From Amphiscolops sp. MND2022 (Eukaryota), in the NCBI GenBank assembly GCA_964187785.1, contig OZ076409.1, positions 73,224,001-73,288,000 of the forward strand: 64,000 nucleotides of DNA. Direction: 5' to 3'. Under the pieces are notes generated by a model. That model was not told the origin of the DNA, did no database searches, and saw only the letters and a list, made by a program, of their open reading frames with translations. Both the position numbers and the translations under genes were made by a program. The stretch's first letter is position 1. Each line of letters starts with the position of its first letter. This document shows positions 3,031-64,000 of the stretch, one piece after another.

Positions 3031-3073
3031 AAGTACATTGCATCTCCCCATCGGGGGAGATGAGAATGTACTT
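3031..3073 (+). other. Bulged hairpin H1 (AAGTACATTC-CATCTCCCC-atcg-GGGGAGATG-A-GAATGTACTT consensus)
   Basis: An inverted repeat with one extra A in the right arm; this copy has one mismatch. Other copies: 7800-7841, 12572-12612, 17325-17367, 24074-24116, 30831-30871, 42714-42756, 46817-46859, 56713-56751. Confidence 0.85.
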
Positions 3074-3893: not shown

Positions 3894-4009
3894 CAACGCC
3901 ACATAGCGTTCCGACGCCCACAGTCTGTGGGCATGCCGAGGCATGCCCTTCGACGACGTATGGCAAATGGAGCCATGCCCGCCGTCTTTACGGCGGTAGC
4001 GGCTAGGTG
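3894..4009 (+). other. Conserved 3'-terminal module plus junction (first of 23 copies)
   Basis: The sequence runs ACAACGCCACATA..CGACGCCCACAGTCTGT-GGGCATGCCGAGGCATGCCC-TTCGACGACGTATG..hairpin..GCTAG|GTG. It is shared by all unit families, including those with dissimilar interiors. Confidence 0.92.
3929..3948. promoter_or_regulatory. 20-bp palindrome matching the p53-family response element (RRRCWWGYYY x2, no spacer); 23 copies
   Basis: GGGCATGCCG|AGGCATGCCC matches 19/20. Copies start at 3929, 8699, 13462, 18222, 20210, 24971, 26962, 31721, 33716, 35703, 37678, 39662, 41656, 42959, 47714, 49711, 51700, 53683, 55669, 56945, 58930, 60913 and 62881. The palindrome is certain; p53 binding is inferred. 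Confidence 0.55.
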
Positions 4010-7000
4010 GGGGGATATATCTCCACTTTTTTTGCGACCGCGGGTAGGGTCCTGTCGGGAGCTTCTATTTACCAAGCTTACGGCGCTATATACTAGAGAA
4101 AATTTTTCCGGCACCGAACTTTTTTTTGAACCATAGGATTTGTACCATTTTTTGCATGCGGCCCTAATTTGGGCATACAAGACGAAGTTCCTGCTGACGT
4201 TAAGCGATGGTTTCATTGTGTAACGAGATATGGCCACTTTTTGGTGCGATTTTTGAGGTATTTTTGAGAAACTTTTTACAAACAGCTCGAATGCAAAAAA
4301 CTGAAAAACTTGTGACAATCAACCTATCACTGGTTTAAACCTTCGATTCTTTGCCCTAGCAATGCACTAGACCCAAAAGATCTAAAACTTTTACATTTTT
4401 CAAAAATTTGACCAAATTGACTCGGGTTTCACTACTATATGTAACCAATGTGACAAAAACACCTCACAAAAAAAATTTTTATTTGCTTAAATTTAGAAAT
4501 CGTGGTATCCATGGTTTCTGTCGGAACCTACTCGCAGCCAAACACTCAACAGTTTGCATCCAATGTGAATATAAAATTTTTTTCGAGGTCATAGGTGTTT
4601 CACAAGGATTTCACAACTTAGTTTCAATTTACAAATTGGTCATTTTCAACATCATATTTCCATCGAGGCATGTCGGATAGAGTCTTATTGCTCACGAACA
4701 GTCCTACTGGCAACGTATTAACCATTTATAGAATTACAAAGTTTTAAAAAAAATTTTTCACCCGTTCTTCAGTCATTTTTCAGACATTCGGAACTTATCT
4801 TAGAAAAATTTCGTCTCAAAAACCCATTTTTTGTCAGGTCGAAAACTCAAATTCAGCTTTTTAAGCACAATTAATAACTCTGACGTAACCAGTGGGGCCC
4901 ATGATACTCAAAACAACGATTGGGGTTGGTACCATTGGCTCAAATAACATATGAGTCGCGATAAGACGTTATTTTTAGCCATACGTCTCAATTGAGGTTA
5001 ACATCTCGCAAGCCAGGGATCTCTGTGAAATGTGATTTCATCAAAAAGTTACCCATTTTCGCCAATTACTATGTGCACAGAGTGCGTAGGGTGAGTTTCA
5101 GCACTATAATGAGGTTTTTGAAGGATTCGGGTTGCTCAAAGGGTGGTATGAGACATTTTTTTCCCATATACTACTGTATTTTCCAAAAATTTTAGCCCAT
5201 TTTCTGGAAAAACTAACTTGACAAAATACTTTCAGTTACTCTATTCGAAGCTTAGAATATAGATGAACACTGTGGTTGATCAGAAACTATTAACTATTTT
5301 GTTTTTAGAAAAAAACTGCCTTGCATGTGTTACATTAGTGGCAGGAAAAATACCAGTAGCTCCAAAAATCAAAAATTTGGACGGACAGACTTCCAATGAT
5401 GCAAAACAAAAACGTTTCAACAACTTCTGACGCCACTTTTTTTACCCAAGAGGTTCGAAAACACCATTAACAATGCTGACATTCGCAATAAATAAGATCG
5501 AGGTCTATTTACTAACACTTAGGTTTTAAATTTTTTTCTCGGAAACCCATTATTGTCAGGTCGCAAATTCAAATTTGGTTTTGGAAGCAATACTTTTCAC
5601 TCTGAAGCAAACCGATGGGCCCAAAATACTCAACAACAACAAAAAGACTATCACCATATGCTCTAATAACATATGAGATGCGACTGTATGTTTTTAACAC
5701 AATAACTCTCATTCTGAAGTAAACATGTTGAAAGCCTTGAATCACCGTGAGAAGTGATTTCATCAAAAAATATTTCTTTTTCGTCAATCACTAAATACAC
5801 AGAACCCGTTGTGTTAGTTTCAGTCGTGAAATGAGGTTCTACCGTAATATCGGTTGCTCAAGGTGTTGTATAAGGCAAAAACTTCCTCTTTTCTACTAAC
5901 TTCTTCAAATACTTCAACCCTTTGTCACACGAAGTTAATATTCAAAATCTCTTTGAATTGTTTCTTAAGGTTGTGGTGAATTGTTAGAACAATTACTATG
6001 ATCGAAGAATGCTAGTATTGGTGTTTGGACCATGTCCGGATGAACAAATCGCAAAATCAAGAAAAAATTGTTTCCTTTTTTGGTTATTTTGGCAGTACTA
6101 AAAATGTTAGCTGATAAATAATTTTTTCGAAGGCACCATTGGATTCCGCTCAAAAAGTTGATTATAAGACATGTGTAATAACCCCGTATCTTTTCAATTT
6201 AAATAAATTTAAAAAGCAAACTTTTTTGACGAAAATCCTAAAAATCATACCATTTCCTAAAAAATTTCAAATGCACTCCATTTGACGTATAAGAATAGCA
6301 CAGAAAACTATCATATACCGATCAACTCTACTCCCATTGTAGACTATTAGAATTTTGTTTTGATTGAATTTTGAAGAATATTAAAAAAATTTGAACCCTC
6401 CAAAAATGGACCAAAATTACACGAAAAAATTGACCTTAAAATTTTAAAATGTCAAAAAATCATCAAAACCACAGCTTCTTGGGGTTCTATCAACTCCACG
6501 TGGTCCACAGAGTACGCTAAAACAGGTTTTACCCGTTTTTGAGCAATATGTGAAAAAGCCGACATTTTTGGGAAAGAAAAACATACCATTTCCTAAAATA
6601 TTTCAAATGCACGCCATTTGCCGTATGAGAATAGCACAGAAAACTATCACATACCGATCAACTCTACTTTCATTGTAGATGATTAGAAGTTAGTTTAAAT
6701 GAAAATTAGACGGATAATAAAAAATTATAAATCCTCCAAAAGTGGGCAAAAATTACACGAAAAAATTGTCCTTAAAATATTAAAATGTCGAAAAATCATC
6801 AAAACCACAGCTTATTGGGGTTCTATCAACTCCACATGGTCCACAGAGTACGCTAAAACAGGTTTTACCCGTTTTTGAGCAATATGTGGAAAAGCCGACA
6901 TTTTTGGGAAAGAAAAACATAACATTTCCTAAAAAAATTCACATGCACGCCATTTGGCGTATAAGAATAGCACAGAAAACTATCATATACCGATCAACTC

Positions 7001-8775
7001 TACTCCTATTGTAGATTATTAGAACTTTGTTTTGAATGAATTTTGATGGATAATAAAAAATTTTGAACCCTCCGAAAATGGGCTAAAATTACACGAAAAA
7101 ATTGACCCTAAAATTTTAAAATGTCTAAAAATCATCAAAACCACAGCTTCTTGAGGTTCTATCAACTCCACATGGCCCACAGAGTATGCCAAACCAGGTT
7201 TTGCGCGTTTTTGAGCAAAATTTAGGAAAGCCGATTTTTTGAGGAAGAAAAACATATCATTTCCTAAAAAACTTCAAATGCACGCCATTTGGCGTATAAC
7301 AATAGCACAGAAAACTATCACATACCAATCAACTCTACTCTTTTTGTAGATTACCAGAAGTTTGCTTAGAATAACTTTTGATGAATATTTATAAATTTTA
7401 AACCCTCCTAATATGGGCCAAAATCACACGGAAAAATTGACCCTAAGTATTAAAATGTCAGATATTCATCAAAACCCCAGCTTCTTGGGGTTCTATCATT
7501 TCCATATGACTTTCAGAGTATACCAAACAAGTTATTAACATTGGGCGATAATTAAAAAGACCAATTTTATTCTGAAGAAAACCATAATATGTTCAATATA
7601 AGAAGTGAATCATTCCACATATATACCCTGTCTAATATTCTAAATTAGCAAAAAAATATATACTTGATGTTTTTCGAATGTGAGCTTCATAAAAGGTTGA
7701 GATGTGATAATACGTAAATGGATTCCAAGTTTCATCGAAAAGTCAATGGAATACGTCCAATCAACTTCAATCTTAACAATTCGATAACAAAAAACACTTA
7801 AGTACATTCCATCTCCCTATCGGGGAGATGAGAATGTACTTTTCAAAAACTAAAAACTTAGATCTTTCTATCTTTTGTAACACTTACTGTAACAGCTGAA
7901 ATGATGAAAGAATAATTATTCTTCTAATAACTTCAAGATTTTTTGCTTCACCTTTTATTTCTGCATAACAAAACCATAAGACATACATATTTTTCGCAGT
8001 TAAGTTCGACTGTATTACCCAGTGAACAAAGGTATGACAGGAAGATTACAAGTTGTCTCAAAACTTTCCCGCCTTCCAAAATCATGAAACGTCTACACAA
8101 CCAAGATAGTAAAGGAATGAATGTGGAATGCATCATTTTAGTTAAAATAAATAACGTGTAGAACTTACCTTTATCTGAAGATGACGTTGATTTATGATCT
8201 TTAGAGGATAGTTCAATTTTTGACCATAATAGTGCGAAACTAATTATTATATGAATAATGGCGTGGAAAGCGTTCAGAAATTGCAGTATTTTCGATTCGA
8301 GCATGTATGCGTGGGTTCCTTTGGTGGCATTAGCTTAGTGTACATGATGGAAGTTTTCGGTCTATTATGATAAAATTTACTCACAAGTCTTTGTTTTTCC
8401 TATTTTCTTATGCCATTAAGTACATTCATTCTATCCCCTTCTCTGGGAATGTACGTTTGCCAAATGACTGTCATCCAAATTTTGCATTCGCGAAGAGTTT
8501 AAAAACATAAACACGTCTTTAGCGTTTCCAAATCACAACCGATTAACATTTTTTAAATTTTTTTTTAATGAAAATTGATAATTTGTTTTGATTTTGGTAT
8601 CTTCTACTTTTATCATCCATCATAACAAGCACCTTACCATGTCTCTCGCTTGTCTTCATTTTACAACGCCACATAGCGTTCCGACTCCCACCGTCTGTGG
8701 GCATGCCGAGGCATGCCCTTCGACGACGTATGCCAACTACTTTTTATATCTACACCCGATTGCGGTAGCGGCTAG
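4007..8775 (+). mobile_element. Unit 1: long class, subfamily C (4769 bp) with divergent 5' leader
   Basis: Bounded by GCTAGGTG junctions. It starts GTGGGGGGATATATCTCC and has 336-bp repeats at ~6240-7520 and H1 at 7800-7841. Confidence 0.75.
6240..7520 (+). repeat. Internal 336-bp tandem repeat (~3.8 copies)
   Basis: Same monomer as 1470-2760 (AAAATCATACCATTTCCTAAAAA...GGGGTTCTATCAACTCCACGTGGTCCACAGAGTA). Confidence 0.88.
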
Positions 8776-11700
8776 GTGGGCGGGGGTAATTCCCCAACAA
8801 AAAAATCGGCCGGCGGGTCGGGTCCTGCCGGCCGTCCAAAATCAAAATCCTCCTAGTAGAAAACGGCATGTCAAACGAGCTATTTTTTTATTTAACCATT
8901 AGAATTTCACCATTTTTTGCATGCGGCCCTGAAATGGCCATACGAGACGAAGTTCCTGCTGACGTTTTGCGATGTAAATGTTTTATAAAAAGTTATGGCC
9001 GATTTGTCATTCACCTAGAAGGGTAAAATGAGGAAAATTTTAACAAAGTCGCTGATAACTCAAAATGTGTTAATTTTTGGACTTTGACTGTGAAACAAGC
9101 TTGGAACCTTCATTTCGTGGCTGTGGCATTGCACTGAACGCAAAAGATGTAAAGTTTTTACATTTTTTGAAAATTTGACATTTTTGAAATTTCTTTCACT
9201 ACTATCAGTATCATATATGTCAAAAACACCTCAGAAAAAAAATTTTATTTGCTTTAACTTGGAAACCTTGGTATCCATGGTTTCTGTCGGAACCTACTCG
9301 CAACCAAACAACCAACAGTTTGCATCCAATGTGAAAATAAAAACTTTTTCTGGGTCATAAGCGTTTCACAAGGATTTCTCAACTTAGTATTAATTTACAA
9401 AATGGTCATTTTGAACACAATATTTTCATCGAGGCTTGTCGGCTATAGCCTTAATGTTCTAGAACGGTCCCACTGGCAACGTAGGAACCATTTATAGTAA
9501 TAGAAAGTTTAAAAAAATATATTTTCACCCTGTCTTCAGTCATTTTTCAGTCATTCGGAACTTAACTTAGAAAAATTTCGACCAAAATACCCATTTTTTG
9601 ACAGATCGAAAATTCAAATTCAACTTTTTAAGCAAAATTATTAACTCTGACGTAACCAGTGGGGCTCATGATACTCAAAAACACGATTGGGACTGGTACC
9701 AATGGCTCCAATATCATATGAGCCGCGATAAGACGTTATTTTGAGCAATACGTCTCAATTGAGGGAAACATCTCGCAAGCCTGGGATCACAGTTAAAAGT
9801 GATTTCGTCAAAAATTTACTCTTTTTCGTCTATCACTATGTACACAGAGTGCGTAGGGTGAGTTTCAGCACTATAATGCGGTTTTTGAAGGAATCGGTCT
9901 GCTCAAGGGGTGGTATGAGACATTTTTTTTTGCATGTAGTACTATATTTCCTAAAACTTTTAGCCCATTATCTCGAAAAGCTCACTTCGCAAATTACTTT
10001 CAGTTACTCTATTCGAAGCTTAGAATATATATGAACACTGTGGTTGATCAGAAACTCTTGACTATTTTGTTTTTGGAAAAAAACTGCCTTGCATGTGTTA
10101 CATTAGTGGCAGGAAAAATACCAGTAGCTCCAAAAATCACAATTTTGGACGGACAGACCTGCAATGATGCAAAGCAAAAACGTTTCAACAACTTCTGGCG
10201 CCACTTTTTTTACCCAAGAGGTTCGAAATTACTATTAACAATGCTGACATTCGCTATATATAAGATCGAGGACAATTTACTAACACTTAGGTTATACATT
10301 TATATCTGAGAAACCATTCTTTGTCAGGTCGCAATTTTAAATTTAGTTTGGGAAGCAATACTTTTCACTCTGAAGCAAACCGTTGGGCCCAAATTACTCA
10401 AAAACTACAAAAAGACTGTCACCAAATGCCCTAATAGCATATGAGATTCGACCGTATGTTTTTAACACAAAAACTCTCATCCGAAGTAAACATGTTGAAA
10501 GCCTTGAATCACCGTGAGAAATGATTTCATCAAAAATATCCCTTTTTCGTCAATCTTTATCTACACAGAACACGTTGTGTCATTTTCAGCCGTGAAATGA
10601 GCTTCTACCGTAATATGGGTTGCTCAAGGTGTTGTATAAGACAAAAACTTCCTCTTTTCTACTATCTTCTTCAAATATTTCAACCCTTTGTCACAAGAAG
10701 TTAATATTCAAAATCTCTTTGAAATGTTTCTTTAGGTTGGTGTGAAGTGTTAGAACAATAATTAAGATCGAAGAATGATAGTATTGGTGTTTGGACCATG
10801 TCCGGATGAACAAATTGCAAAATCATGAAAAATTTCTTACCATTTTTGGTCATTTTGTCAGTACTAAAAATGTTAGCTGAAAAAGAATTTTTTTGATGGC
10901 ACCATTGGATTCCTCTCAAAAAGTTAGCTATATGAACTGTGTAATAACCCCGTATCTTTTCAATTTAAATAATTTTAAAAAGCAAACTTTTTTGACTAAA
11001 ATCCTAAAAATCATACCATTTCCTAAAAAATTTCAAATGCCCCCCATTCGACGTATAAGAATAGCACAGAAAACTATCACATACCGATCGACTCTACTTC
11101 CATTGTAGATTACCAGAATTTTGTTTAGAACAATTTTTGACGGATGCAAAAAAATTTAAACCCTCCAAAAAAGGGCCAAAATTACACGAAAAAATTGACC
11201 TTAAAATTTTAAAATGTCGAAAAATCATCAAAACCACAGCTTCTTGGGGTTCTATCAACTCCACGTGGTCCACAGAGTATGTTAAAACAAGTTTTACCCG
11301 TATTTGAGCAATATGTGAAAAAGCCGACTTTTTTGGGAATGAAAAACATACCATTTCCTAAAAAATTTCAAACGCACCCCATTTGACGTATAAGAATAGC
11401 ACAGAAAACTATCACATACCGATCGACTCTACTTCCATTGTAGGTTACCAGAATCTTGTTTAGAACATTTGTTGACGGATGCAAAAAAAAATAAAACCCT
11501 CCAAAAATGGGCCAAAATTACACGAAAAAATTGACCTTAAATTTTTAAAATGTCAAAAAATCATCAAAACCACAGCTTCTTGGGGTTCTATCAACTCCAC
11601 GTGGTCCACAGAGTATGCTAAAACAGGTTTTACCTGTTTCTGAGCTATATGTGAAAAAACCGACATTTTGGGGAAGAAAAACATACCATTTCCTAAAAAA

Positions 11701-13538
11701 TTTCAAATGCACGCCATTTGCCGTATGAGAATAGCACAGAAAACTATCACATACCGATCAACTCTACTTCTATTGTAGATTATCAGATTTTTGTTTAGAA
11801 CAAATTTTTATGGATATAAAAAATTTTTAAACCCTCCAAAAATGAGCCAAAATAACACGAAAAAATGGACCCTAAATTTTTAAAATGTCAAAAAATTATC
11901 CAAACCACAGCTTCTTGGGGTTCTATCAGCTCCACGTGGTCCACAGAGTATGCTAAAACAGGTTTTGCCCGTTTTTGAGCAGTATATGAAAAAGCCGACA
12001 TTTTTGGGGAAGAAAAACATACCATTTCCTAAATAATTTCAAATGCAGGCAATTTGCCGTATGAGAGTAGCACAGAAAACTATCACACACCGATCAACTC
12101 TACTTCTTTTGTAGATTATCAGAATTATGTTTAGAGTAAAGTTTTATGGATATGAAAAATTTTTATACCCTCCAAAAATGGGCCAAAATGACACGAAAAA
12201 ATTGACCTCAAATTTTTAAAATGTCAAAAAATTATCCAAACCACAGCGTCTTGGCGTTCTATCAACTCCAAATGACCTTCAGAGTATACCAAACCAGGTA
12301 TTGCCAATCTTTTGAGCAATATTTAAAAACACCGACTATTTGGCAAGAACACCATAATATGTTCCATATAAGAAGTGAATCATTCCACATATATACCCGG
12401 TCTAATATTTTCAAATTAGCGATAACATTAATACATGATGTTTTTTGAAAGTGAGCTTCATAAGAGGTTGAGATGTAATAATACGTAAATGGACCCTAAG
12501 TTTCATTGAAATCTCAATGGAATACGTCCAATCAACTTCAATCCTAACTATTATATAACAAGAAACACTTGAGTACATTCCATCTCCCCATCGGGGGAGA
12601 TGAGAATGTACTTTTCAAAAGCCAAAATTTTCGAATTTTAAATCTTTTGTAACATTGTATGTAACTGTTGAAACGATGAACGAATAAAAATGCTTCTAGT
12701 ACCTTCATCAATTTTTGCTTCAGCTCCTATTTCTGCAGAACAAAACCAAAAGACACACTTACAGCAGTTAAGTTCGATTGTATAACTCAGTGAATAAAGG
12801 TATGACTGAGGAAGTTCACAAGTTGTTTCAAAAGTTTCCGGCCTTCCAAAATCATGAAACGTCCACACAACCAAGATAGCAAGTGAAAGAATGCTGAATG
12901 CACCTTATTAGATGAGATAAATAACGTGTGGAACTTGCCATTATCTTAAGATGACGTTGATTTATGATCTTTTAAGGATAGTTCGATATGTGACCACAAT
13001 AGTGGAAAACTTATTACTATTTGAAGAACACCGTGGAAAGCGTTCAGAAAGGACAGTATATTTGTTTCGAGCATGCATGCGTGTGTTCCTTTGGTGACGT
13101 TAGCTTAGTGTACATGACGGAGGTATTCGAGAGATTATGATAGAGTTTACTCACAAGTCTTTGTTTTTTAAAACTTTCTATGCCGTTGAGTACATTCGTA
13201 AGGTACATCCATCCCCTTCTCTGGGAATGTACGTTTGCCAAATGACTGTCATCCAAAATTCGTAATCCGGACGAGTTTAACTACATAAACATGTGATGAG
13301 CGTTTTCTATTCAAAACCGAATAACTTTTTTTTTCTCGAAAATGATGATGGTTTTGATTTTGATGTCTTCTACTTTTATCATCATGCAAACGACCTTACC
13401 ATGTCTCTCTTCTGTCGTCATTTGTACAACGCCACATAGCGTTCCGACGCCCACCGTCTGTGGGCATGCCGAGGCATGCCCTTCGACGACGTATGCCAAA
13501 TGAGCCATACCCGCACTCTGGAGTGCGGTAGCGGCTAG
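8776..13538 (+). mobile_element. Unit 2: long class, subfamily B (4763 bp)
   Basis: Junction-bounded and a near-copy of 27034-31797. 3' hairpin CCGCACTC-tg-GAGTGCGG. Confidence 0.75.
11007..12300 (+). repeat. Internal 336-bp tandem repeat (~3.8 copies)
   Basis: Same monomer as 1470-2760. Confidence 0.88.
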
Positions 13539-51771: not shown

Positions 51772-53754
51772 GTGGGCGGGGGTAATTCCCCTTCAAAAAA
51801 TTCGGCCGGCGGGTTGGGTCCTGCCGGACGTCAAATAGTGTGAAACATCCAGTAGGAAACGGCGACATAAATCAGCGATTTTAAAATTTAACCGTTAGAA
51901 TTCGGACTTGGAGTGCATGCGGCCCCAAAATTCCCATACGAATCGAAGTTCCTGCTGACGTTAAGCGATAAAAACATTTTATAAAAAGTTATGGCCCATT
52001 TTACGTTCACCTATGAGGGTAAAATGAGGAAAATTTTTACAAAGTCGCTGATAACTCAAAATACATTGTTTTTTGGCTTTTGACTGTGAAACAAGCTTAG
52101 AACCTTCATTTCGTGGCTGTGGCATTGCACTGAACACAAAAGATGTTTAGTTTTTACATTTTTCGAAAATTCGACATTTTTGATTTTTTTTTCACTACTA
52201 TCAGTACACTATATGTCAAAAACACCTCTGAAAAAAATTATTATTTGCTTAAAATTAGAAACCTTGGTATCCATGGTTTCTGTCGGAACCTACTCGCTGC
52301 CAAACACCCAACAGTTTGCATCCAATGTGAATTTAAAATTTTTTTCGAGGTCATAAGGGTTTCACAAGGTTTTCATAACAAAGTATTAAACTACAAACTG
52401 GTCATTTTCAACATAATATCTTTGTCGAGGCATGTCGGATATAGTCCTATTGCTCACGAACGGTCCTACTGGCAACGTAATAACCATTTATAGAAATGTA
52501 AAGTTATAAAAAAAATTTTCACCCGGTCTTCAGTCATTTTTCAGTCATTCGGAACTTAACTTAGAAAAATTTCGACCAAAATATCCATTTTTTGTCAGGT
52601 CGAAAAATCAAATTCAGATTTTTAAGCAAAATTATTGACTCTGACGTAACCCATGGGGCCCATGATACTCAAAACAACGATTGACACTGGTATCAATGGC
52701 TCCAATAACATATGAGTCGCGATAAGACGTTATTTTGAGCATTACGTCTCAATTGAGGTAAAGATCTCGCAAGCCAGCGATCACTGTGAAATGTAATTTC
52801 ATCAAAAATTTACTCTTTTTTGTCAATCACTATGTGCACAGAATGCGTAGGGTGCGTTTCAGCACTATAATGAGGTTTTTGAAGGCATCGAGTTGCTCAA
52901 GGGTTGGTATGAGACACTTTTGTCCCATATACTACTGTATTTTCCAAAATTGTTAGCCCAATATCTGGAAATACAAACTTGACAAAATACTTTCAACTAC
53001 TTTATTCAAAGGTTACATTATAGATGAACACTGTGGTTGATCAGAAACTTTCATCTCTTTCGTTTTCCGAAATATTTCCCTTCGCATGTGTTACATTCGT
53101 AGCAGAAAAAAAAATCGAAACTGAAAAATACGCAATTTTGCTAATATAGAATCGCAATGATTGTGCCTAAAAACTCTTTAAACACTTCTAACGTAACCTT
53201 ACGCACCCAAAATGATCGAAAATGCTATTCACAATGGTGACATGTGCTCTTTCTACGATCCTGGCTGGACAAGGTTTGCATATTTTTCAAGTACCTGTCA
53301 GCTAAATCTTGTGATAGCCTTTTCAGTTGGCCTTGTGTCAACTTGGGAAGGCTATCACATCAAAAAACCATCAACAAAAATAATTTTTGTTTATTGGATC
53401 TTACAGTCGATACTTTTTTTCGTGATTCTATACTACCGTTAGTATATTTCCTCAGGTCACCTTACGATTGCATTCAGTCTTTGATAAAAACCTATGAACT
53501 CAAAGTCACATTTTTATATTTTTTTGCCAAAAAAAACATCAAAAATATCTAAAATATATAAAATAGAGTCTAACATTTTTACATTTCAAGTTTCTGCCGT
53601 TATTAGGCCCATCAACTTCCTACAGCCAGGCTCTCTGTCATACTGTACAACGCCACATAGTGTTGCGACGTGCACGGTCTGTGGGCATGCCGAGGCATGC
53701 CCTTCGACGACGTATGCCGAATACCGCGGGCCTACGCCCGCGCTCCCCGGCTAG
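51772..53754 (+). mobile_element. Unit 17: 2-kb class, family S (1983 bp)
   Basis: Junction-bounded, with H2 at 53313-53356. Confidence 0.75.
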
Positions 53755-55740
53755 GTGGGCGGGGGTAATTCCCCAACAAAAAAATCGGCCGGCGGGTCGG
53801 GTCCTGCCGGCCGTCCAAAATCAAAATCCTCCTAGTAGAAAACGGCCGGTCAAACGAGCTATTTTTTTGTTTAACCGTTAGAATTTGGTTTTAGATTGCA
53901 TGCGGCCCTAAAATCCCCATACGAATGGAAGTTCCTGCTGGCGTTAAGCGATTGAAATAATATATAAAAAGTTATGGCCCATTTTTGGGTCAACGAGAAG
54001 GTCAAAATGAAGAAAATTTTAACTAAGTTGCTGATAACTCAAAATGTGTTAATTTTTGGACTTTGACTGTGAAACAAGCTTGGAACCTTCATTTCGTGGC
54101 TGTGGCATTGCACTAAACACAAAAGATTTAAAGTTTTCACATTTTTTGAAAATTCGACATTTTTGAATTTTTTTTCACTACTATCAGTACACTATATGTC
54201 AAAAACACCTCTGAAAAATTTTTTTATTTGCTTAAATTTAGAAACCTCGGTATCCATGATTTCCGTCAGTACCTACTCGCTGCCAAACACTCAACAGTTT
54301 GCATCCAATGTGAAAATAAAATTTTTTTCGTGGTCTTAGGTATTTCACAAGGATTTCTCAACTTAGTATCAATTTACAAATTGGTCATTTTGAACACATT
54401 ATTTTCATCGAAGCGTGTCATATACCGCCCTAATGCTCACGAACGGGCGTACTGGCAACGTTGGAACCATTTATAGTAATAAAAAGTTTTTAAAAAAATT
54501 TTTCAACCCGTCTTCAGTCATTTTACACACTTTCGGAACTTAACTTAGAAAAATTTCGTCTCAAAAACCCATTTTTTGTCAGGTCGAAAACTCAAATTCA
54601 GCTTTTTAAGCACTATTATTAACTCTGACGTAACCAGTGGGGCCCATGATACTCAAAACAACGATTGGGGTTGGTACCATTGGCTCAAATAACATATGAG
54701 TCGCGATAAGACGTTATTTTTAGCTATACGTCTCAATTGAGGTAAACATCTCGCAAGCCAGGGATCTCTGTGAAATGTGATTTCATCAAAAATATACTCA
54801 TTTTTGTCAATCACTATGTGCACAGAATGCGTAGGGTGCGTTTCAGCACTATAATGAGGTTTTTGAAGGCATCGAGTTGCTCAAGGGGTGGTATGAGACA
54901 TTTTTGTCCCATATATTACTGTATTTTCCAAAATTTTTAGCCCAATATCTGGAAATACAAACTTGACAAATTACTTTCAAATACTTTATTCAAAGGTTAC
55001 AATATAGATGAACACTGTGGTTGATCAGAAACTTTCATCTCTTTCGTTTTCCGAAAAAATTCCCTTCGAATGTGTTACATTTGTAGCAGGAAAAAAACCG
55101 AAACTAAAAAATACGCGTTTTTGCTGAGATAGAATCGCAATGGTTACGCCTAAAATCTTTTTAAAAACTTCTAACGCGACCTTACGGACCCAAAATGATT
55201 GAACATGTCAATCAGAATGCTGACATGTGTTCTATCTACGATCATGGTTGGACAATTTTTGCATTATTTTCAAGTACCTGTTAACTGAATCTTGTGATAG
55301 CCTTTTAAGTTGGCCTTGTGTCAACTTTGGAAGGCTATCACATCAAAAAATGATCAACAAAAATGCTTTTTGTTTATACAATGTTGTTTTCGATAAACAT
55401 TTTTGCGATTCTAAGCTACTGTTAGTACCTTTCATGAGGTCAGCTAACGATAGCATGCAGTCTCTGATAAAAAATTATGAACTCAATTACATTTTTCTAA
55501 ACTTTTTCATTGAGAAAAGTACAAATAAATAAAAACAATATAAAATTCTAATCTCAAACAACTATAAATTGTTTGTTTTTCACCGTAATCAGTTTACGAC
55601 CCATCACCCTATGTCACGGCACCGTCATTAGTACAACGCCACATAGTGTTGCGACGTGCACAGTCTGTGGGCATGCCGAGGCATGCCCTTCGACGACGTA
55701 TGCCGAATACCGCGGGCCTACGCCCGCGCTCCCCGGCTAG
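53755..55740 (+). mobile_element. Unit 18: 2-kb class, family S (1986 bp)
   Basis: Junction-bounded, with H2 at 55296-55339. Confidence 0.75.
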
Positions 55741-57018
55741 GTGGTCGTTAGCATGGGATTTTCTTTATGAGCGTAGTCCACTTTTTTTAGGCCGGGGTAG
55801 GGTCCCGGGCCGTTACCAATTTCTTACGGAGGAAAAATGTGAAAATCTGCGAGTTTAAAAAATTGGCCCGTACGATTTGGCTGAAAATTGGCATACAGCA
55901 TCGTCTTGGTAAACAAATGACTTTGTCCTAGTGACATTTTGCCCAGAAAATTCAAAAAGTTGGTCAAATTGAAAATTTTTTGACCGTCTAAGGCTAAAAT
56001 TTGACTTTTTCGCTTTTTTTGGTCAATTTCCTCAGAACTGGTTGATTTTGGTGAAGTAAGTCATGAGAGGTTATAAGGTCTGCAAATAGCCATCAATTGG
56101 CTTGCATAATCAGATTTTGTCAAAAGTGTTTAGTTTTTTCAAAATTTCACACTTTTTTTTCATTTCAGTGTTTTTTGATACAATTTATTGAATTTTTACT
56201 AAGTTCCACTAAATATTTTTAAAATGTTTTTAAAAAACCTTTTTTTGCACGTTTTTGATGTTTTTTGCTCTCCCATATAGGTTTTCGCATACGGGGAACC
56301 TGAATCTGACAACGAAATAATTTTATTCCGCAGTTCAACTTACGCCATTTTTAATAGTGAAAAATCACTCATTTTCAATCTAACGAGTGAAAATATCAGA
56401 ATTTAAAAACCTAAAGTTGAGTTTAAGGCGACTTACAGGTAGAAACAAATGCTCAGAAACAAACTGATTTCTTGTATTAGCTAAAGAAAGCCTTCAAAAT
56501 TCTTTTTACTTTCTTTAAATCAAAATTCGACACTTTCCATGAAATTTGTCAGTGGAAAAAATTTATCATTTTTTAAATTAAAAACTTGCTTTGTTGGTCA
56601 TTTCCGTTAGTCATTAGTAGCTGTGTAATGCTCCAAAGCCTTTCAAGTTCTTTTGACCCTATTTGAAAACTTTTGATACTGCATAATCAATCCGAGAGAA
56701 CGAAACAGTTGTGTACATTCCATCTCCCTCTTGGGGGAGATGAGAATGTACTTCCTAAAGTCCAGGTACTACAGATCATATTTGGTTTTATGCGACGCCC
56801 TCTATGCTAGTGCATATAAATACAAGTTGTTTGGCTGGATTTTGCTTCTGACTTGACGTATACTGTACGTTTGGTACTGACAATACCCATCATTTACATA
56901 ACAAACGTCAACGCCACATACCCTTACCAACGCCCATAGTCCGTAGGCATGCCGAGGCATGCCTTTCGACGACGCGCGCCAAACACAAGCGCGCCCGCAC
57001 TTTTGCGGTAGCGGCTAG
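55741..57018 (+). mobile_element. Unit 19: 1.3-kb class (1278 bp), distant relative of unit 13
   Basis: Starts GTGGTCGTTAGCAT, with H1 at 56713-56751 and the palindrome variant AGGCATGCCGAGGCATGCCT. Confidence 0.72.
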
Positions 57019-59001
57019 GTGGGCGGGGGTAATTCCCCAACAAAAATTACGGCCGGCGGGTTGGGTCCTGCCGGACGTCAAATAGCAGAAAATACCTATT
57101 AGGAATCGGCGACACAAAATCGCTATTTTTAAATCTAACCACAATTTTTTGGACTTGGAGTGCATGCGGCCCTGAAATGCCCATACGAATCGAAGTTCCT
57201 GCTGACGTTAAGCGATTGAAATAATATATAAAAAGTTATGGCCCATTTTTCACTCACAAAGAAGGGTAAAATGAGGAAATTTTTAACAAAGTCGCTGATA
57301 ACTCAAAATGTGTTAATTTTTGGACATTGACTGTGAAACAAGCTGGGAACCTTCATTTCGTGGCTGTGGCATTGCACTGAACACAAAAGATGTAAAGTTT
57401 TTACATTTTTTGAAAATTCGAAATTTTTGAAATTTTTTTCACTACTATCAGTACCCCATATGTCAAAAACGCCTCAGAAAAAATTTTTTATTTGCTTTAA
57501 ATTGGAAACCTTGGTATCCATGGTTTCTGTCGGATCCTACTCGCAGTCAAACACCCAACAGTTTGCATCCAATGTGAATTAAAAATTTTTTTCGGGGTCA
57601 TAAGCGTTTCACAAGGATTTCTCAACTTAGTTTCAATTTACAAATTGGTCACATTGAACACATTATTTTCATCGAAGCGCGTCAGATACCGCCCTAAAGC
57701 TCACGAACGGTCCTACTGGCAACGTAGCAACCATTTATAGTAATATAAAAGATTAAAAAAATTTTTTCACCCGGTCTTCAGTCATTTTTCAGTCATTCGG
57801 AACTTAACTTAGAAAAATTTCGACCAAAATACCCATTTTTTGTCAGTTCGAAAAATCAAATTCAGATTTTAAAGCAAAATTATTAATTCTGACGTAACTC
57901 ATGGGGCCCATGATACTCAAAACAACGATTGACACTGGTATCAATGGCTCCAATAACATATGAGTCGCGATCGGACGTTATTTTGAGCAATACGTCTCAA
58001 TTGAGGTAAAGATATCGCAAGCCAGCGATCACTGTCAAATGTGATTTCATCAAAAATTTACTCATTTTTGTCAATCACTATGTGCACAGAATGCGTAGGG
58101 TGCGTTTCAGCACTATAATGAGGTTTTTGAAGGCATCGAGTTGCTCAAAGGATGGTATGAGACATTTTTGTCCCATATACTACTGTATTTTCCAAAATTT
58201 TTAGCCCAATATCTGGAAATACAAACTTGACAAAATACTTTCAACTACTTTATTCAAAGGTTACAATATAGATGAACACTGTGGTTGATCAGAAACTTTC
58301 ATCTCTTTCGTTTTCCGAAATATTTCCCTTCGTATGTGTTACATTTGTAGCAGAAAAAAAATCGAAACTGAAAATACGCTATTTTGCTAATATGGAATCG
58401 CAATGATTGTGCCTAAAAACTTTCTAAATACTTCTAACGCAACTGTACAGACCCAAAATGATTGAAAATGCCATTCACAATGCTGACATGTGCTCTTTCT
58501 ACGATCCTAACTGGACAAGTTTTGCATATTTTTCAAGTACCTGTTAACTGAATCTCGTGATAGCCTTTTAAGTTGGCCTTGTGTCAACTTGGGAAGGCTA
58601 TCACATCAAAAAACCATCAACAAAAATAATTTTTGTTTATTGGATCTTACAGTTGATACTTTTTTTCGTGATTCTATACTACCGTTAGTATATTTCATCA
58701 GGTCACCTTACGATTGCATTCAGTCTTTGATAAAAACCTATGAACTCAAAGTCACATTTATATATTTTTTTGCCAAAAAAAAACATCAAAAATATCTAAA
58801 ATATATAAAATAGAGTCTTTAACATTTTTACATTTCAAGTTTCTGCCGTTATTAGGCCAATCAACGTCCTAGAGCCACATCCTGTCATACTGTACAACGC
58901 CACATAGTGTTGCGACGTGCATAGTCTGTGGGCATGCCGAGGCATGCCCTTCGACGACGTATGCCGAATACCGCGGGCCTACGCCCGCGCTCCCCGGCTA
59001 G
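57019..59001 (+). mobile_element. Unit 20: 2-kb class, family S (1983 bp)
   Basis: Junction-bounded, with H2 at 58559-58602. Confidence 0.75.
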
Positions 59002-60984
59002 GTGGGCGGGGGTAATTCCCCAACAAAAATTACGGCCGGCGGGTCGGGTCCTGCCGGACGTCAAATAGTGTGAAACATCCAGTAGGAAACGGCGACATAA
59101 ATCAGCGATTTTAAAATTTAACCGTTAGAATTCGGACTTGGAGTGCATGCGGCCCCAAAATGCCCATACGAATCGAAGTTCCTGCTGACGTTAAGCGATA
59201 AAAACACTTTATAAAAAGTTATGGCCCATTTTACGTTCACTTAGAGAGGTAAAATGAGGAAAATTTTAACAAAGTTGCTGATAACTCAAAATACAATAAT
59301 TTTTGGCTTTTGACTGTGAAACAAGCTTAGAACCTTCATTTCGTGGCCGTGGCATTGCATTGAACACAAAAGATGTAAATTTTTTAAATTTTTTGAAAAT
59401 TCGACATTTTTGATTTTTTTTTCACTACTATCAGTACCCGATATGTCAAAAACACCTCAGAAAAACATTTTTATTTGCTTTAAATTGGAAACCTTGGTTT
59501 CCATGGTTTCTGTCGGAACCTACTCGCAGCCAAACACTCAACAGTTTGCATCCAATTTGAAAATAAAATTTTTTTCGGGGTCATAAGCGTTTCACAAGGA
59601 TTTCTCAACTTAGTATTAATTTACAAAATGGTCATTTTGAACACAATATTTTCATCGAGGCTTGTCGGCTATAGCCTTAATATTCTAGAACGGTCCCACT
59701 GGCAACGTAGGAACCATTTATAGTAATAGAAAGTATTTAAAAAATATTTTCACCCGGTCTTCAGTCATTTTTCAGTCATTCGGAACTTAACTTAGAAAAA
59801 TTTCGACCAAAATACCCATTTTTTGTCAGGTCGAAAATTCAAAATCAGATTTTTAAGCAAAATTATTAACTCTGACGTAACCCATGGGGCCCATGATACT
59901 CAAAACAACGATTGACACTGGTATCAATGGCTCCAATAACATATGAGTCGCGATAAGACGTTATTTTGAGCAATACGTCTCAATTGAGGTAAAGATCTCG
60001 CAAGCCAGCGATCACTGTGAAATGTGATTTCATAAAAAATTTACTCATTTTTGTCAATCACTATGTGCACAGAATGCGTAGGGTGCGTTTCAGCACTATA
60101 ATGAGGTTTTTGAAGGCATCGAGTTGCTCAAAGGATGGTATGAGACATTTTTGTCCCATATACTACTGTATTTTCCAAAATTTTTAGCCCAATATCTGGA
60201 AATACAAACTTGACAAAATACTTTCAACTACTTTATTCAAAGGTTACAATATAGATGAACACTGTGGTTGATCAGAAACTTTCATCTCTTTCGTTTTCCG
60301 AAATATTTCCCTTCGCATGTGTTACATTTGTAGCAGAAAAAAAATCGAAACTGAAAAATACGCTATTTTGCTAATATGGAATCGCAATGATTGTGCCTAA
60401 AAACTTTTTAAATACTTCTAACGCAACTGTACAGACCCAAAATGATTGAAAATGCCATTCACAATGCAGACATGTGCTCTTTCTACGATCCTAACTGGAC
60501 AAGTTTTGCATATTTTTCAAGTACCTGTTAACTGAATCTCGTGATAGCCTTTTAAGTTGGCCTTGTGTCAACTTGGGAAGGCTATCACATCAAAAAATTT
60601 TCAACAAAAATACCTTTTGTTTATTGGAAATGACAGTCGATATATAATTTCGTGATTCTATACTACCGTTAGTACCTTCCATTAAGTCACCTGACGATTG
60701 CATTCAGTCTTTGATAAATACCTATGAACTCGAAGTCATATTTATAATTTTTGTGCTAAAAATAAACATCAAAATTATCCAATTTATTTAAAATTGAGTC
60801 TTTACCGTTTTTGTTTTACTTTTTCTACTGTTATTAGGCTCATCAACTTCCTACAGCCACGCTCTCTGTCATTAGTACAACGCCACATAGTGTTGCGACG
60901 TGCACGGTCTGTGGGCATGCCGAGGCATGCCCTTCGACGACGTATGCCGAATACCGCGGGCCTACGCCCGCGCTCCCCGGCTAG
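59002..60984 (+). mobile_element. Unit 21: 2-kb class, family S (1983 bp)
   Basis: Junction-bounded, with H2 at 60543-60586. Confidence 0.75.
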
Positions 60985-62958
60985 GTGCGGGGGGGTAACC
61001 CCTACAAAGATATTGGAGGATTCGGGTAGGGTCCTGAATCCGAGTTCAGTGCTGCCAGCTATCGTTAGGGATTTTAGAAAATTTTGCCGATCTCGTGATC
61101 TAACCGTAGGATTTTAAAGTTGGAGCGGCCCCCACCAGATTTTCCAAAGTTATTCGCCCCCCACCGGGTTCCAGCGTGATTGAAATATTTTGACGGGGTA
61201 CACGGGCGACCGTTAGGGGTCATTTTGGGGGTAAAATTTATATCCGGTCGCATAACTTTTTTCCTGTTGGTTTAAAACTTTGGGACCCTGCTAAAAGTTT
61301 CTTGACCGTGTTGCAGTGGCTCCGGAGGTCCAAACCAAATTTTTCTATCTTGAAGCTATCTCCAAGTACCCCCCCGCCCAAACCGTTATTTTTCCGGAAA
61401 CGCAGGTTTTTGACCCGGAAGGAGTCGTCTGAGCGCGGGGTCGTTAGGTGATGTATTGGGGACGGCCTTGAGACGAAGCGGGGGACATGTAGTTTGCCGA
61501 CCCCTGTTTACCCCCCGGACGGGAAATGACCGTTATTTGAGCGGGAAAAATGCCCCCCTCCACGTTTTACCGCTATTTCCGGTGTGAAGGAGTGGGAGTA
61601 GCGCGTCGGGTGTTATATAACAAAAGTAGGTTTAGACAAGGACCAATCGGAAACATGTGGTTTGGGACCCCCAGGCCCAACCCGTTAGCGGGAAATGGGG
61701 CTTCCGCCTCCTTTTTTTACTGCTAAAACCTTAAAATGGGCATTGAGGGGTAAATATCTCGTGAACGCGTGGAGCTACGGTGTCCATCACTACTACAAGG
61801 TTTCATACCCATGATATGGTGCCTTCAGGGGGGCAAACAGATTTCCGCTATCTATCGCCGTTACCGACTTGGCCCCCCAGCCTAACCGCTATGTGACCGG
61901 AAATGTCACTTTTTGAGCCCAAAGGGTCGGTCCCAGCCAGGGAACGTTAGGTAACTTATTGTACTACTCAATGAGACGAGTTGGGGGACATAGTTTCAGT
62001 CACCCCCCGTTACCCCTTGGGACCGGAAATGACCGTTATGTGGGTAAAATTGCAATATATGTACTTTTTAAAGGACTTTTAGATGCGGAAGGAGTGGTAA
62101 TAGGTGCTTGGACACTATATGATGATAGGGAGGACGTGAGGCGAGCATTCGGAAATAACCGTTATGTTGACCCTGAAGTCCCCCTGGTACCGGAAGTGAC
62201 CCGTAATGGTCAAATTTTGTGTTTAAAGGGTACAAATGTTTGGTGTTTTTTGGATAACAGTACCTATTAGGTGTTTCGACGGTCTGCAGTCGTGAACATA
62301 GTCATGAAACCTTGTGGGGGGTAACGGTATATAGCACCTTAAGTGCAAACCGTTGGAGACAGGATAAGTTTTTTGGTTTTAAAATGTCTTTCGGCCTACT
62401 TTTGTTGACTATTATGGACTATTTTTGAAAAAAAAAGTTTTTCCATATAGTTTCAGAGACTCCGAAACCTCAACCAACATAACCGTTACCTTATGATAGC
62501 CTTTCAAGTTGGCCTGGTGTCAACTTGGAAGGGCTATCCTTCAAAAATCATTAATCAAGTGTGTTTTTGAGTATGTTTGTTTTACTTTAGAATCAATTAG
62601 AGCTTCAAGAAAAGTTTGCCAACGATAAAAACTATGTCGTGATGATTCCGTTATTAGAATAATAGTTAACAAAATATTGATAAAGTTGATTTTTTACATT
62701 TCAAATGTGTCCTAAATGCCAGAAAAACTCTTTACCAAACAAATGGTATTGATTGGATTGTATATAACAGCTAATAAAAGTTCAAATTGAATATTACGTT
62801 TCATTATGGAAGCTGAAACGTCAAATTATAGTTTAATTAACGTCAACGCCACATACTTTACATCAACGCCCACCGTCTGTGGGCATGCCGAGGCATGCCC
62901 TTCGACGACGTATACCAAATTCCTCCAACACAACACCCTCGAGCGCGGTAGCAGCTAG
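60985..62958 (+). mobile_element. Unit 22: 2-kb class, family D (1974 bp)
   Basis: Diverged homologue of unit 10, with H2 at 62495-62538. Confidence 0.75.
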
Positions 62959-64000
62959 GTGGGCGGGGGTAATTCCCCTTCAAAAAATTCGGCCGGCGGG
63001 TTGGGTCCTGCCGGACGTCAAATAGTGTGAAACATCCAGTAGGAAACGGCGACATAAATCAGCGATTTTAAAATTTAACCGTTAGAATTCGGACTTGGAG
63101 TGCATGCGGCCCCAAAATGCCCATACGAATCGAAGTTCCTGCTGACGTTAAGCGATAAAAACACTTTATAAAAAGTTATGGCCCATTTTACGTTCACTTA
63201 GAGAGGTAAAATGAGGAAAATTTTAACAAAGTTGCTGATAACTCAAAATACATTAGTTTTTGGACTTTGACTGTGAAACAAGCTTGGAACCTTCATTTCG
63301 TGGCTGTGGCATTGCACTGAACACAAAAGATGTGAAATTTTCACATTTTTTGAAAATTCGACATTTTTTGATTTTTTTTTCACTACTATCAGTACACTAT
63401 ATGTCAAAAACACCTCTGAAAAAATTTTTATTTGCTCAAATTTAGAAACCTCGGTATCCATGGTTTCCGTCAGTACCTACTCGCTGCAAAACGCTCAACA
63501 GTTTGCATCCAATGTGAAAATAAAATTTTTTTGGAGGTCTTAGGTGTTTCACAAGGATTTCTCAACTTAGTATCAATTTACAAATTGGTCATTTTGAACA
63601 CATTATTTCCATCGAAGCTTGTCGGCTATAGCCTTAATGTTCTAGAACGGTCTCACTGGCAACGTAGGAACCATTTATAGTAATAGAAAGTTTTAAAAAA
63701 ATTTTTTCACCCGGTCTTCAGTCATTTTTCAGTCATTCGGAACTTAACTTAGAAAAATTTCGACCAAAATACCCATTTTTTGTCAGGTCGAAAAATCAAA
63801 TTCAACTTTTTAAGCAAAATTATTAACTCTGACGTAACCCATGGGGCCCATGATACTCAAAACAACGATTGACACTGGTATCAGTGGCTCCAATAACATT
63901 TGAGTTGCGATAAGACGTTACTTTGAGCAATACGTCTCAATTGAGGTAAAGATCTCGCAAGCCAGCGATCACTGTGAAATGTGATTTCATCAAAAATTTA
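62959..64000 (+). mobile_element. Unit 23: S/long-type 5' body (3'-truncated by window)
   Basis: Starts GTGGGCGGGGGTAATTCCCC after the junction at 62958. Its size class cannot be determined. Confidence 0.7.

What the first reader, a model, noticed from the sequence alone, without database searches (positions are those of the whole stretch)
4002..62961. Cassette-like array: different element families joined precisely at an invariant GCTAG|GTG site in shuffled order
Seen: all 23 junctions contain GCTAGGTG, while bases immediately outside this 8-mer vary. One end (…CTCCCCGGCTAG) is followed by GTGGGCG (27033, 51771, 53754, 59001), GTGGTCAC (41727), GTGGTCGT (55740) or GTGCGGG (60984). The D-family start follows two different ends (35780, 60984). 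The order is A C B A s A s B s s D s s E A s s s s F s s D, with no higher-order period and no spacer DNA, and close relatives are non-adjacent (units 2/7, 4/11, 10/22). Established: rolling-circle read-through or unequal crossover produces runs of like neighbours. Inference: units move as discrete modules, probably as circles closed at GCTAGGTG, and integrate at an existing junction, which regenerates the site. That would make a self-extending, integron-like landing array acted on in trans by an HUH nickase or a tyrosine recombinase (an 8-bp core fits either).
Basis: partly seen in the sequence, partly recalled or inferred. Interest (0 to 1): 0.92.

Follow-up and report, generated by a model that had tools for sequence, protein, structure and literature searches.

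The report
Self-stacking rolling-circle transposon array
This DNA is a slice of a multi-megabase stack of rolling-circle transposons from an unusual Helitron-like lineage whose many families appear to insert almost only at each other's ends, so they pile up head-to-tail instead of scattering through the genome.

Summary
There are 23 GCTAG|GTG junctions, all on one strand, joining 22 complete units of 1.3, 2.0 and 4.8 kb without spacer.

The units are non-autonomous Helitron-like elements. The window lies in an array region of about 6 Mb (C1 ~70.5-76.5 Mb); the genome has 4,935 such junctions. The same arrays hold intact 13-15 kb elements with the same joints. These encode an HUH-Y2 Rep/PIF1 helicase with a C-terminal GIY-YIG domain, plus an OB-fold protein. 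These transposases form a clade apart from HLE1 and HLE2, with relatives in metagenomes that share the 5' hairpin.

A paralogous empty site shows precise insertion directly behind a host CTAG, the element's own last four bases (IS91-like). Of 3' ends with the exact module, 4,242 join another element and 87 do not. Near-identical units almost never share neighbours (2 of 67 pairs), so single units move.

It is not an integron, and no tyrosine recombinase was found. Circles and self-targeting chemistry are inferred, not shown.

The parts
1..64000 (+). Slice of a head-to-tail array of non-autonomous Helitron-like elements (22 complete units, two cut by the window ends); G000:C1:73224001-73288000, inside an array region of about C1:70.5-76.5 Mb
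4002..4009 (+). First of 23 junctions, CTAG|GTG. The joint follows bases 4006, 8775, 13538, 18299, 20287, 25048, 27033, 31797, 33793, 35780, 37751, 39740, 41727, 43028, 47791, 49788, 51771, 53754, 55740, 57018, 59001, 60984, 62958
3929..4006 (+). 3' terminal module (palindromic 20-mer, TTCGACGACG, family-specific hairpin, CTAG); present before all 23 junctions
   Evidence: 4,293 exact copies of the 20-mer in the genome
4042..4052 (+). 5' subterminal hairpin loop GGG(T/G)NGGGNCC with covarying stem; present after all 23 junctions and upstream of related transposase genes in metagenome contigs
4007..8775 (+). Unit 1 (C, 4,769 bp); 98.0% twin in the array at C1:3.58 Mb
8776..13538 (+). Unit 2 (B, 4,763 bp); 98.8% to unit 7 (27034-31797)
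13539..18299 (+). Unit 3 (A, 4,761 bp); differs from unit 5 (20288-25048) at one base, with unit 4 between them; 98-99% twins at 43029-47791, C1:73.76 Mb and C1:38.05 Mb
18300..20287 (+). Unit 4, first of the twelve ~1.98-kb 's' units; the family shows mosaic 5'/3' combinations
35781..37751 (+). Unit 10 (D, 1,971 bp), alignable to the other families only at the termini; 97.2% twin in the array at C1:23.99 Mb; second D unit at 60985-62958
41728..43028 (+). Unit 13 (E, 1,301 bp); 97.0% twin at C1:24.02 Mb; shares 254 bp at 90% and its 3' module with the 12.9-kb RepHel element at C1:73737316-73750224
55741..57018 (+). Unit 19 (F, 1,278 bp)
15769..17035 (+). 336-bp internal tandem repeat (3.8-4 copies) of the 4.76-kb units; also at 1473-2739, 6241-7498, 11007-12356, 22518-23784, 29264-30615, 45261-46527

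Best explanation
The units are non-autonomous members of a Helitron-like (HUH rolling-circle) transposon lineage outside HLE1 and HLE2. They are moved in trans by 13-15 kb autonomous elements that sit in the same arrays (RepHel-GIY-YIG, OB-fold protein, SGNH-like ORF). Shown: each element runs GTG...CTRG; it inserts directly 3' of a CTNG that matches its own last four bases, usually before NT; nearly all copies lie head-to-tail with other families; single units move between arrays and chromosomes. Inferred: RepHel nicks the top strand at CTAG|GTG, peels off and circularises one unit as Helraiser does, and integrates the circle by strand transfer at a site that looks like its own circle junction. 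An existing element-element junction, with nick site, 5' hairpin and 3' module, is the best such site and each insertion adds one more, so arrays seed themselves at rare host CTNG|NT sites and then grow from within. The SLX1-like GIY-YIG domain probably trims branched intermediates (speculative). Recombination between similar units and occasional two-unit read-through act on top.
For: Same joints on intact RepHel elements. HUH (H1131, H1133) and Y2 (Y1302, Y1306) invariant in 14 aligned proteins. Empty site: 14 of 14 paralogous SINE-like copies read straight through where a solo unit (98% to an array unit) sits behind GCTAG. 4,242 ends join GTG against 87 followed by A, C or T, although roughly a million CTAG(A/T)T host sites are expected (rough). 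21 of 25 inspected exits have T at +2, like GT. Twins at 97% or more share a right neighbour in 2 of 67 pairs and a left one in 2 of 66. One 13.7-kb element at four chromosomes has four different left and four different right neighbours, all joined at CTAG|GTG. Units 3 and 5 differ by one base in the middle of the array. Separate clade: SH-aLRT 90 (this clade), 99 (HLE2), 100 (HLE1), 83 sequences. Distant relatives show the same rule: L184/L185 have CT(C/G)G before and CTGG at the end of one element at two loci; L160 has CTGG|GTGGGCGG.
Against: No circles, transcripts, reads or second haplotype were examined. Like families are neighbours about twice as often as chance (28 of 142 against 15.5; 15 against 6.9 at 90%) and the 2-kb units are mosaics, so processes other than single-unit insertion act. 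The 98% figure counts only ends with an exact 14-mer, so decayed dispersed copies are missed; most of 20 dispersed ends examined were diverged or truncated. The second empty site is imperfect: the insert ends in about 10 bases resembling the host 5' flank. A 3' hairpin is not general (24 of 96 distinct ends with z below -2). No autonomous element matching both ends of the window's main 2.0/4.8-kb family was found. 15 of 98 long relatives lack the GIY-YIG match, so it is not essential.
Confidence: 0.72

Rival explanations
1. Same elements, but only the short CTNG|NT site is recognised. Arrays arise because insertion happens near the donor or in a permissive chromatin domain, and because scattered copies are purged or decay.
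For: Solo and small-array insertions exist at plain host sites. Like families cluster locally. Units 3 and 5, one base apart in sequence, lie 2 kb apart. Exact-motif counts miss old dispersed copies.
Against: In the 200-kb stretch 72 junctions are end-to-end on one strand and no unit interrupted at an internal CTAG was noticed there, although the window alone has 9 GCTAG on + outside junctions. Twins are shared between distant arrays and chromosomes.
Confidence: 0.13
2. Arrays are rolling-circle read-through concatemers, later reshuffled by unequal crossover and gene conversion, as proposed for known tandem Helitron arrays.
For: Tandem Helitron arrays are reported in plants and bats (PMC5876387, passages; PMC11934779, passages). 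One two-unit block recurs at C1:73.83-73.84 Mb and one in the C1:29.53 Mb array. Mosaic 2-kb units.
Against: Near-identical adjacent units are 2 of 142, as by chance (1.5), and twins share neighbours in only 2 of 67 pairs. Families alignable only at their termini are joined precisely. No higher-order period.
Confidence: 0.11
3. An integron-like or Crypton-like system run by a tyrosine recombinase on an 8-bp core.
For: The site can be written as a short direct repeat on both sides of a solo unit, as described for CryptonS (PMC13565253, passages).
Against: The large units with the same ends encode RepHel, and no recombinase family was found in the ORFs scanned. The core varies (CTAG, CTGG, CTTG).
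Confidence: 0.02
4. The shuffled order is an assembly artefact.
For: No reads could be laid on it. Units 3 and 5 are nearly identical. A 200-N gap with an orientation switch lies in the C1:23.98 Mb array.
Against: 148 units fall into 111 clusters at 97%, so most are distinguishable. An assembler would not join non-homologous units at one exact base thousands of times. The empty-site comparison is independent of array order.
Confidence: 0.02

Closest known systems
Canonical Helitrons (HLE1, e.g. Helraiser, Xuan-Feng)
   Same: HUH-Y2 Rep fused to a PIF1 helicase, ORF reading towards a CTRR 3' end, OB-fold accessory gene, many non-autonomous derivatives, no target duplication. Helraiser makes circles with a precise CTAG-to-start junction and cuts them (PMC5876387, passages).
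   Different: Starts GTG, not TC. Inserts behind CTNG, not between A and T. Longer motif II (EFQxxxGNxxHxH in 88 of 98 relatives, 0 of 120 HLE1), a family-specific N-terminal region, C-terminal GIY-YIG, about 18% identity in the trimmed core. Mixed-family arrays of megabases.
HLE2 (Helitron2/Helentron)
   Same: RepHel, hairpin near the 5' end, internal tandem repeats in non-autonomous copies. One Sphagnum HLE2 family has a captured GIY-YIG (PMC11417382, passages).
   Different: No T|T insertion, no DUF6570, no AP endonuclease; separate clade, about 19% identity. GIY-YIG is fused and widespread here (83 of 98) and absent from the 120 HLE2 proteins sampled.
Paramecium third HLE clade (PMC13085455, passages and first part of section 18)
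   Same: Outside HLE1/HLE2, absolute strand bias, and a target (C4A2 repeats) that resembles the element's own end (CCAA).
   Different: Inserts into telomeric repeats rather than other elements; ORFs 9-10 kb against about 7 kb here; GIY-YIG not mentioned in its main text or seven text supplements. Kinship with this clade was not testable.
IS91 family (PMC13181058, passages)
   Same: HUH-Y2 rolling-circle element whose target tetranucleotide (CTTG) resembles its ter cleavage site (CTCG); circular junction intermediates; no target duplication.
   Different: Prokaryotic, no fused helicase; no mixed-family arrays in the passages seen.
Replitrons (PMC10288648, passages)
   Same: Eukaryotic HUH transposons with short direct repeats at the ends and oriented insertion behind a short target.
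   Different: Y1 Rep without helicase; the proteins here are Y2 RepHel.
Tandem Helitron arrays and Helitron-derived satellites (plants, bats, Xenopus, Hydractinia, Meloidogyne; passages)
   Same: Head-to-tail Helitron copies, sometimes in large chromosomal blocks.
   Different: In the passages seen these are runs of one family, truncated copies or internal minisatellites. Here dozens of families and intact autonomous elements alternate with full-length precise joints.

Membership tests
Helitron-like elements (superfamily) | Autonomous partner encodes HUH-Y2 Rep followed by a PIF1-type helicase | tested here: met
   PF14214 and PF05970 over cut-off; invariant H1131/H1133 and Y1302/Y1306; helicase part matches Helraiser 7LCC, E 1e-16
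Helitron-like elements (superfamily) | Non-autonomous copies share termini with autonomous ones | tested here: met
   Same CTRG|GTG joints and 5' hairpin; the 12.9-kb element shares the window's 3' module at 86-100% over 54-91 bp. No autonomous element matching both ends of the main window family was found.
Helitron-like elements (superfamily) | Insertion without loss or duplication of target bases | tested here: met
   14 of 14 empty paralogues at one site. The shared CTAG can also be written as a short direct repeat; a second site is imperfect.
Helitron-like elements (superfamily) | Circular intermediates with joined ends | not testable with these tools
   No reads or eccDNA data were available
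HLE1 | 5' TC start | tested here: not met
   Starts are GTGG 104 and GTGC 44 of 148; boundary fixed independently by the empty site
HLE1 | 3' CTRR end | tested here: met
   CTAG or CTGG in 147 of 148
HLE1 | 3' subterminal hairpin | tested here: inconclusive
   Strong in most window end types, but only 24 of 96 distinct ends reach z below -2, median about 0
HLE1 | Insertion between A and T | tested here: not met
   Host side before the element ends in CTAG, CTGG or CTTG at the clear boundaries
HLE1 | Transposase falls in the HLE1 clade | tested here: not met
   Trees of Rep, helicase and both; references were chosen by similarity to this genome's own HLE1 and HLE2, not from a curated set
HLE2 | Insertion between T and T | tested here: not met
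HLE2 | DUF6570 marker domain | tested here: not met
   PF20209 absent from 29 of 29 homologues and from two proteins scanned; common among HLE2 hits
HLE2 | Asymmetric terminal inverted repeats | not tested
   Not searched for specifically
HLE2 | Transposase falls in the HLE2 clade | tested here: not met
   HLE2 27 of 27 monophyletic without this clade, SH-aLRT 99
Paramecium HLE clade | Transposase groups with Paramecium RepHel | not testable with these tools
   No Paramecium sequences were held
Replitron | Y1 Rep without helicase | tested here: not met
   Y2 Rep fused to PIF1
Integron / Crypton | Tyrosine recombinase in the autonomous unit | tested here: not met
   No such Pfam family in the ORFs of the autonomous units scanned; the rest of the genome was not searched for one

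The most novel reading that the evidence does not exclude
This is an undescribed, widespread lineage of eukaryotic HUH transposons (RepHel-GIY-YIG plus OB-fold gene, conserved 5' hairpin) in which dozens of diverged families share one landing site, the junction between two elements. They build their own multi-megabase, transposon-only, single-strand-polarity arrays as a safe harbour: site-specific integration at a self-regenerating att-like site by a Helitron-type enzyme. Such arrays could serve the host as a chromosomal domain, and the enzyme could serve as a programmable, self-extending integrase.
Probability: 0.55. Interest if true: 0.9.

Novelty: new variant of a known kind. Interest (0 to 1): 0.8.

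Why it matters
Helitrons are taken to insert at AT or TT dinucleotides almost anywhere. How they pick and join a target is the least understood step of their cycle.

Here a separate lineage seems to use its own end-to-end junction as the target. That links eukaryotic Helitrons to IS91-type targeting and gives a defined substrate for testing integration in vitro. Intact transposases, identical over the tested Rep stretch on four chromosomes, point to recent activity.

It also shows a way to make megabase repeat blocks that are neither satellites nor piles of broken nested elements. A transposase that adds cargo repeatedly at one defined site would interest genome engineers. The lineage has 351 representatives at E below 1e-30 in a 50%-identity library and is barely detected by the standard Helitron Pfam model, so it may have been missed in many genomes.

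Tried and rejected
RNA-gene array: no Rfam family at gathering threshold and no tRNA in the window.

Coding in the window: the longest stop-to-stop frame in 4000-20300 is 150 aa; the rest of the window was not listed.

Sequencing runs: none was listed for L014, so no reads were laid; this is no evidence either way.

Structure: folding the OB-fold ORF without an alignment failed (pLDDT 32); with 14 sequences it worked.

Trees: the first domain extraction failed on too strict patterns. In the second, 7 of 92 sequences could not be anchored and 2 mis-anchored ones were dropped. The trees are unrooted; one protein of this genome (L213) branches between HLE1 and HLE2.

Host boundaries: 20 dispersed 3' ends were traced upstream; only two gave a clean full-length match with a 5' boundary.

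Control: 15 loci of this genome's ordinary HLE1/HLE2 genes held 0-1 CTRGGTG(G/C) each. This is weak, because the stretches need not include the element ends.

Not obtained: the ends of further autonomous families, so the partner of the window's main family stays open.

Earlier scan findings: three look-ups returned nothing.

Literature: ten searches found no description of this clade or of mixed-family junction arrays. Repbase and most subscription papers, including Xiong et al. 2016 (seen only as cited by others), were not searchable.
Full report
1. The observation. GCTAGGTG occurs 23 times on the + strand and never on the - strand; 0.36 per strand is expected. It cuts the window into 22 complete units of 1,278-4,769 bp with no spacer. 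The 4.76-kb types A, B, C and the 1.98-kb type s share their first 1.5 kb at about 80-85%; D aligns to them only at the ends, E and F only at the ends and in short patches. Every junction has a ~75-nt module before it and a GGG(T/G)NGGGNCC motif after it, so the conserved feature is two terminal modules and not just 8 bases. No Rfam family, tRNA or long ORF was found.

2. Genome context. The window is G000:C1:73.224-73.288 Mb in a 1.07-Gb assembly. The 20-mer of the 3' module has 4,293 exact copies (control 0). The pattern CTAGGTG plus 5' motif has 4,935 (control 3). Ten of ten 4-kb samples between C1:70.7 and 75.5 Mb held + strand junctions, one at 76.08 Mb held - strand junctions, and nine outside held none; continuity between samples was not checked. 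A contiguous 200 kb at 73.72-73.92 Mb has 72 junctions on + and none on -, six more with another start type, and six RepHel ORFs of 2,345-2,411 aa; one 23-kb segment was not resolved into units. Smaller arrays lie at C1:3.5, 24.0, 29.5 and 38.1 Mb.

3. The helper. In the C1:24.0 Mb array a 13,675-bp unit with the same joints carries a 2,377-aa ORF with Helitron_like_N, PIF1 and GIY-YIG matches (the last below Pfam's cut-off in this copy, above it in others). HUH and two tyrosines are invariant in 14 aligned relatives. The GIY-YIG part matches SLX1 structures (best E 4e-6). A second ORF, conserved in metagenome relatives, folds with pLDDT 78 and resembles OB-fold single-strand binders: RPA by Foldseek, E 5e-5, MCM10 Z 9.6 over 117 residues. 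Some elements have a ~240-aa ORF with GDS, GGND and DxxH motifs typical of SGNH hydrolases (motifs recalled; Pfam matches below cut-off). A Rep-segment search gave 153 matches; of the 150 listed, 35 lie in C1:70.5-76.5 Mb, all on +, 28 of them in open frames of 2,200 aa or more, at 29-90% identity to the query (counted by hand). Other clusters are at C2:102-104 Mb and C3:2.4-3.9 Mb. The 12.9-kb element at C1:73737316-73750224 ends in the window's 3' module and shares internal sequence with unit 13. Others end differently, and none examined matches both ends of the window's main family.

4. Place among Helitrons. HLE1 and HLE2 references came from searches with this genome's ordinary Helitrons. 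On 587 trimmed columns of 83 proteins, the 32 new ones form one clade (SH-aLRT 90, stem 1.3), beside HLE2 (27; 99) and HLE1 (23; 100); Rep and helicase alone agree. Mean identity to HLE1 and HLE2 is 18-19%, against 23% between those two. Of 98 relatives of 2,100 aa or more, 88 have the lengthened motif II, 83 match a GIY-YIG profile and 97 an N-terminal profile; none of 120 HLE1 or 120 HLE2 proteins does (the profiles were built from this family). The clade is large: 351 representatives at E below 1e-30. In 38 metagenome loci the 5' motif occurs 9 times against 0.67 in shuffles, 7 times upstream of the transposase gene on its strand (two pairs are the same element). The stem around the motif covaries: 169 of 354 outer positions pair, against 107 on average and 130 at most in 2,000 permutations (related sequences and four mis-anchored rows included).

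5. The target. A solo 1.98-kb unit, 98% identical to an array unit, lies in a tRNA-like SINE on C2. All 14 paralogues retrieved read GCTAG|ATC with nothing between, so the element is GTG...CTAG placed directly behind a host GCTAG. A second solo lies behind CTTG in an LTR-retrotransposon-like repeat (4 of 4 paralogues empty), but its last ten bases resemble the host flank. The C1:29.5 Mb array starts behind host CTAG and ends CTAG|TTG. Of 87 ends followed by a base other than G, 63 have A, 22 T and 2 C (counted by hand). Of 30 inspected, 5 were altered junctions inside arrays; of the other 25, 21 have T at +2. The host target is therefore about CTNG|NT, a mimic of the junction CTAG|GT. In L184/L185 one distant element sits behind CTCG and CTGG at two loci, ends in CTGG and is followed by T. 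This is the IS91 arrangement, target CTTG and ter site CTCG (PMC13181058, passages).

6. How the arrays grow. 4,242 ends join GTG and 87 are followed by A, C or T; ends followed by other G-starting sequence were not counted, and decayed copies are missed. About a million CTAG(A/T)T sites are expected in the genome (235 in 251 kb, a sample that includes 14 SINE loci carrying the site). Among 148 units from six stretches, pairs at 97% or more share a right neighbour in 2 of 67 cases and a left one in 2 of 66; adjacent near-identical units are 2 of 142 (1.5 expected). Window units have twins in arrays up to 70 Mb away. One autonomous element, identical over the tested Rep stretch on C1, C2, C6 and C8, has different neighbours on both sides at all four places. 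Units 3 and 5 differ at one base in mid-array, which needs a recent event at an internal junction. Against a pure model: like families are neighbours more than chance (28 of 142 against 15.5 at 80%), and best matches switch along the 2-kb units.

7. Mechanism. Helraiser forms circles with a precise end-to-start junction, cuts that junction and uses circles as donors (PMC5876387, passages). I infer the same first steps here, with integration at a site that resembles the circle junction. A chromosomal junction carries the nick site and both terminal modules, so it should be the best target, and each event makes one more. That the enzyme reads more than CTAG|NT is inferred from the counts in section 6; local hopping plus purging of scattered copies is the main rival. 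The roles of GIY-YIG, the OB-fold protein and the SGNH-like ORF are guesses.

8. Comparison and novelty. It works like a Helitron with IS91-type targeting. It is a Helitron-like element but fails the tests for HLE1 and HLE2. HELIANO reports unclassified elements in 19 genomes, at least four extra clusters and one HLE2 family with a captured GIY-YIG (PMC11417382, passages and supplement look-ups); some could belong to this clade, and their sequences were not compared. A third clade is described in Paramecium, with ends CCAA inserted in C4A2 repeats (PMC13085455, passages and part 1 of section 18; no GIY match in seven text supplements); kinship is untested. Passages of PMC3627910, PMC6431247, PMC10288648, PMC3333891, PMC13565253, PMC13286980, PMC11934779, PMC13404089, PMC12001565, PMC5148889 and 10.64898/2026.09.17.752431 describe tandem or centromeric Helitrons, Replitrons and BIME arrays, but not mixed-family junction arrays. 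Ten searches found no description; Repbase was not available. Verdict: a new variant of a known kind, with an unusual targeting rule and array form.

Noticed in passing
window 3929-3948 and the 22 equivalent places: The palindromic 20-mer resembles a p53-family response element with two adjacent half-sites; the second fits the consensus fully and the first in 9 of 10 positions (consensus recalled, not from a call). It has 4,293 exact copies, and a degenerate second copy lies 200-300 bp upstream in a 2.2-kb family. It could tie mobilisation to DNA damage or the germ line.
   Followed up: partly
G000:C1:37.9-38.08 Mb and 3.588-3.63 Mb (L017-L021, L029): A second class of units (about 1.05 and 4.4-4.9 kb) lacks the 20-mer module, often ends CTGG, and forms blocks within the same arrays, interleaved with the window's families.
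   Followed up: partly
G000:C1:23978673-23978873 (L011): Array orientation flips across a 200-N gap; junctions are also on the minus strand at C1:76.08 Mb (L095). Either inversions or scaffolding errors.
   Followed up: no
window 814-1198 and 1536-1917 within each 4.76-kb unit: An old internal duplication (67-71% identity) about 720 bp apart, and a 336-bp tandem repeat of 3.8-4 copies; a ~150-bp patch near unit position 4050-4200 matches position 630-790 of autonomous and 1.3-kb elements.
   Followed up: no
L141, L188-L202: An abundant tRNA-derived SINE-like repeat (684 candidates) carries a GCTAGCTAG site that received one insertion.
   Followed up: partly
L168:9250-9310: In a metagenome contig a CTGG followed by the 5' hairpin motif lies just downstream of a related element's last ORF, hinting at tandem stacking in another organism.
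   Followed up: no
L184, L185: The same 11.7-kb element (95-99% identical) at two loci among WD40, PPR, GH47 and helicase genes of a compact eukaryotic genome; here it appears solo.
   Followed up: yes
L173:5845-8052: A SET-domain ORF directly downstream of a related transposase gene, possibly cargo.
   Followed up: no
L213:1905-6416: A RepHel of this genome that branches between HLE1 and HLE2 in the tree.
   Followed up: no
P0017-P0022, L151: A subgroup of the clade (about 38% identity to the query) lacks the C-terminal GIY-YIG domain.
   Followed up: partly
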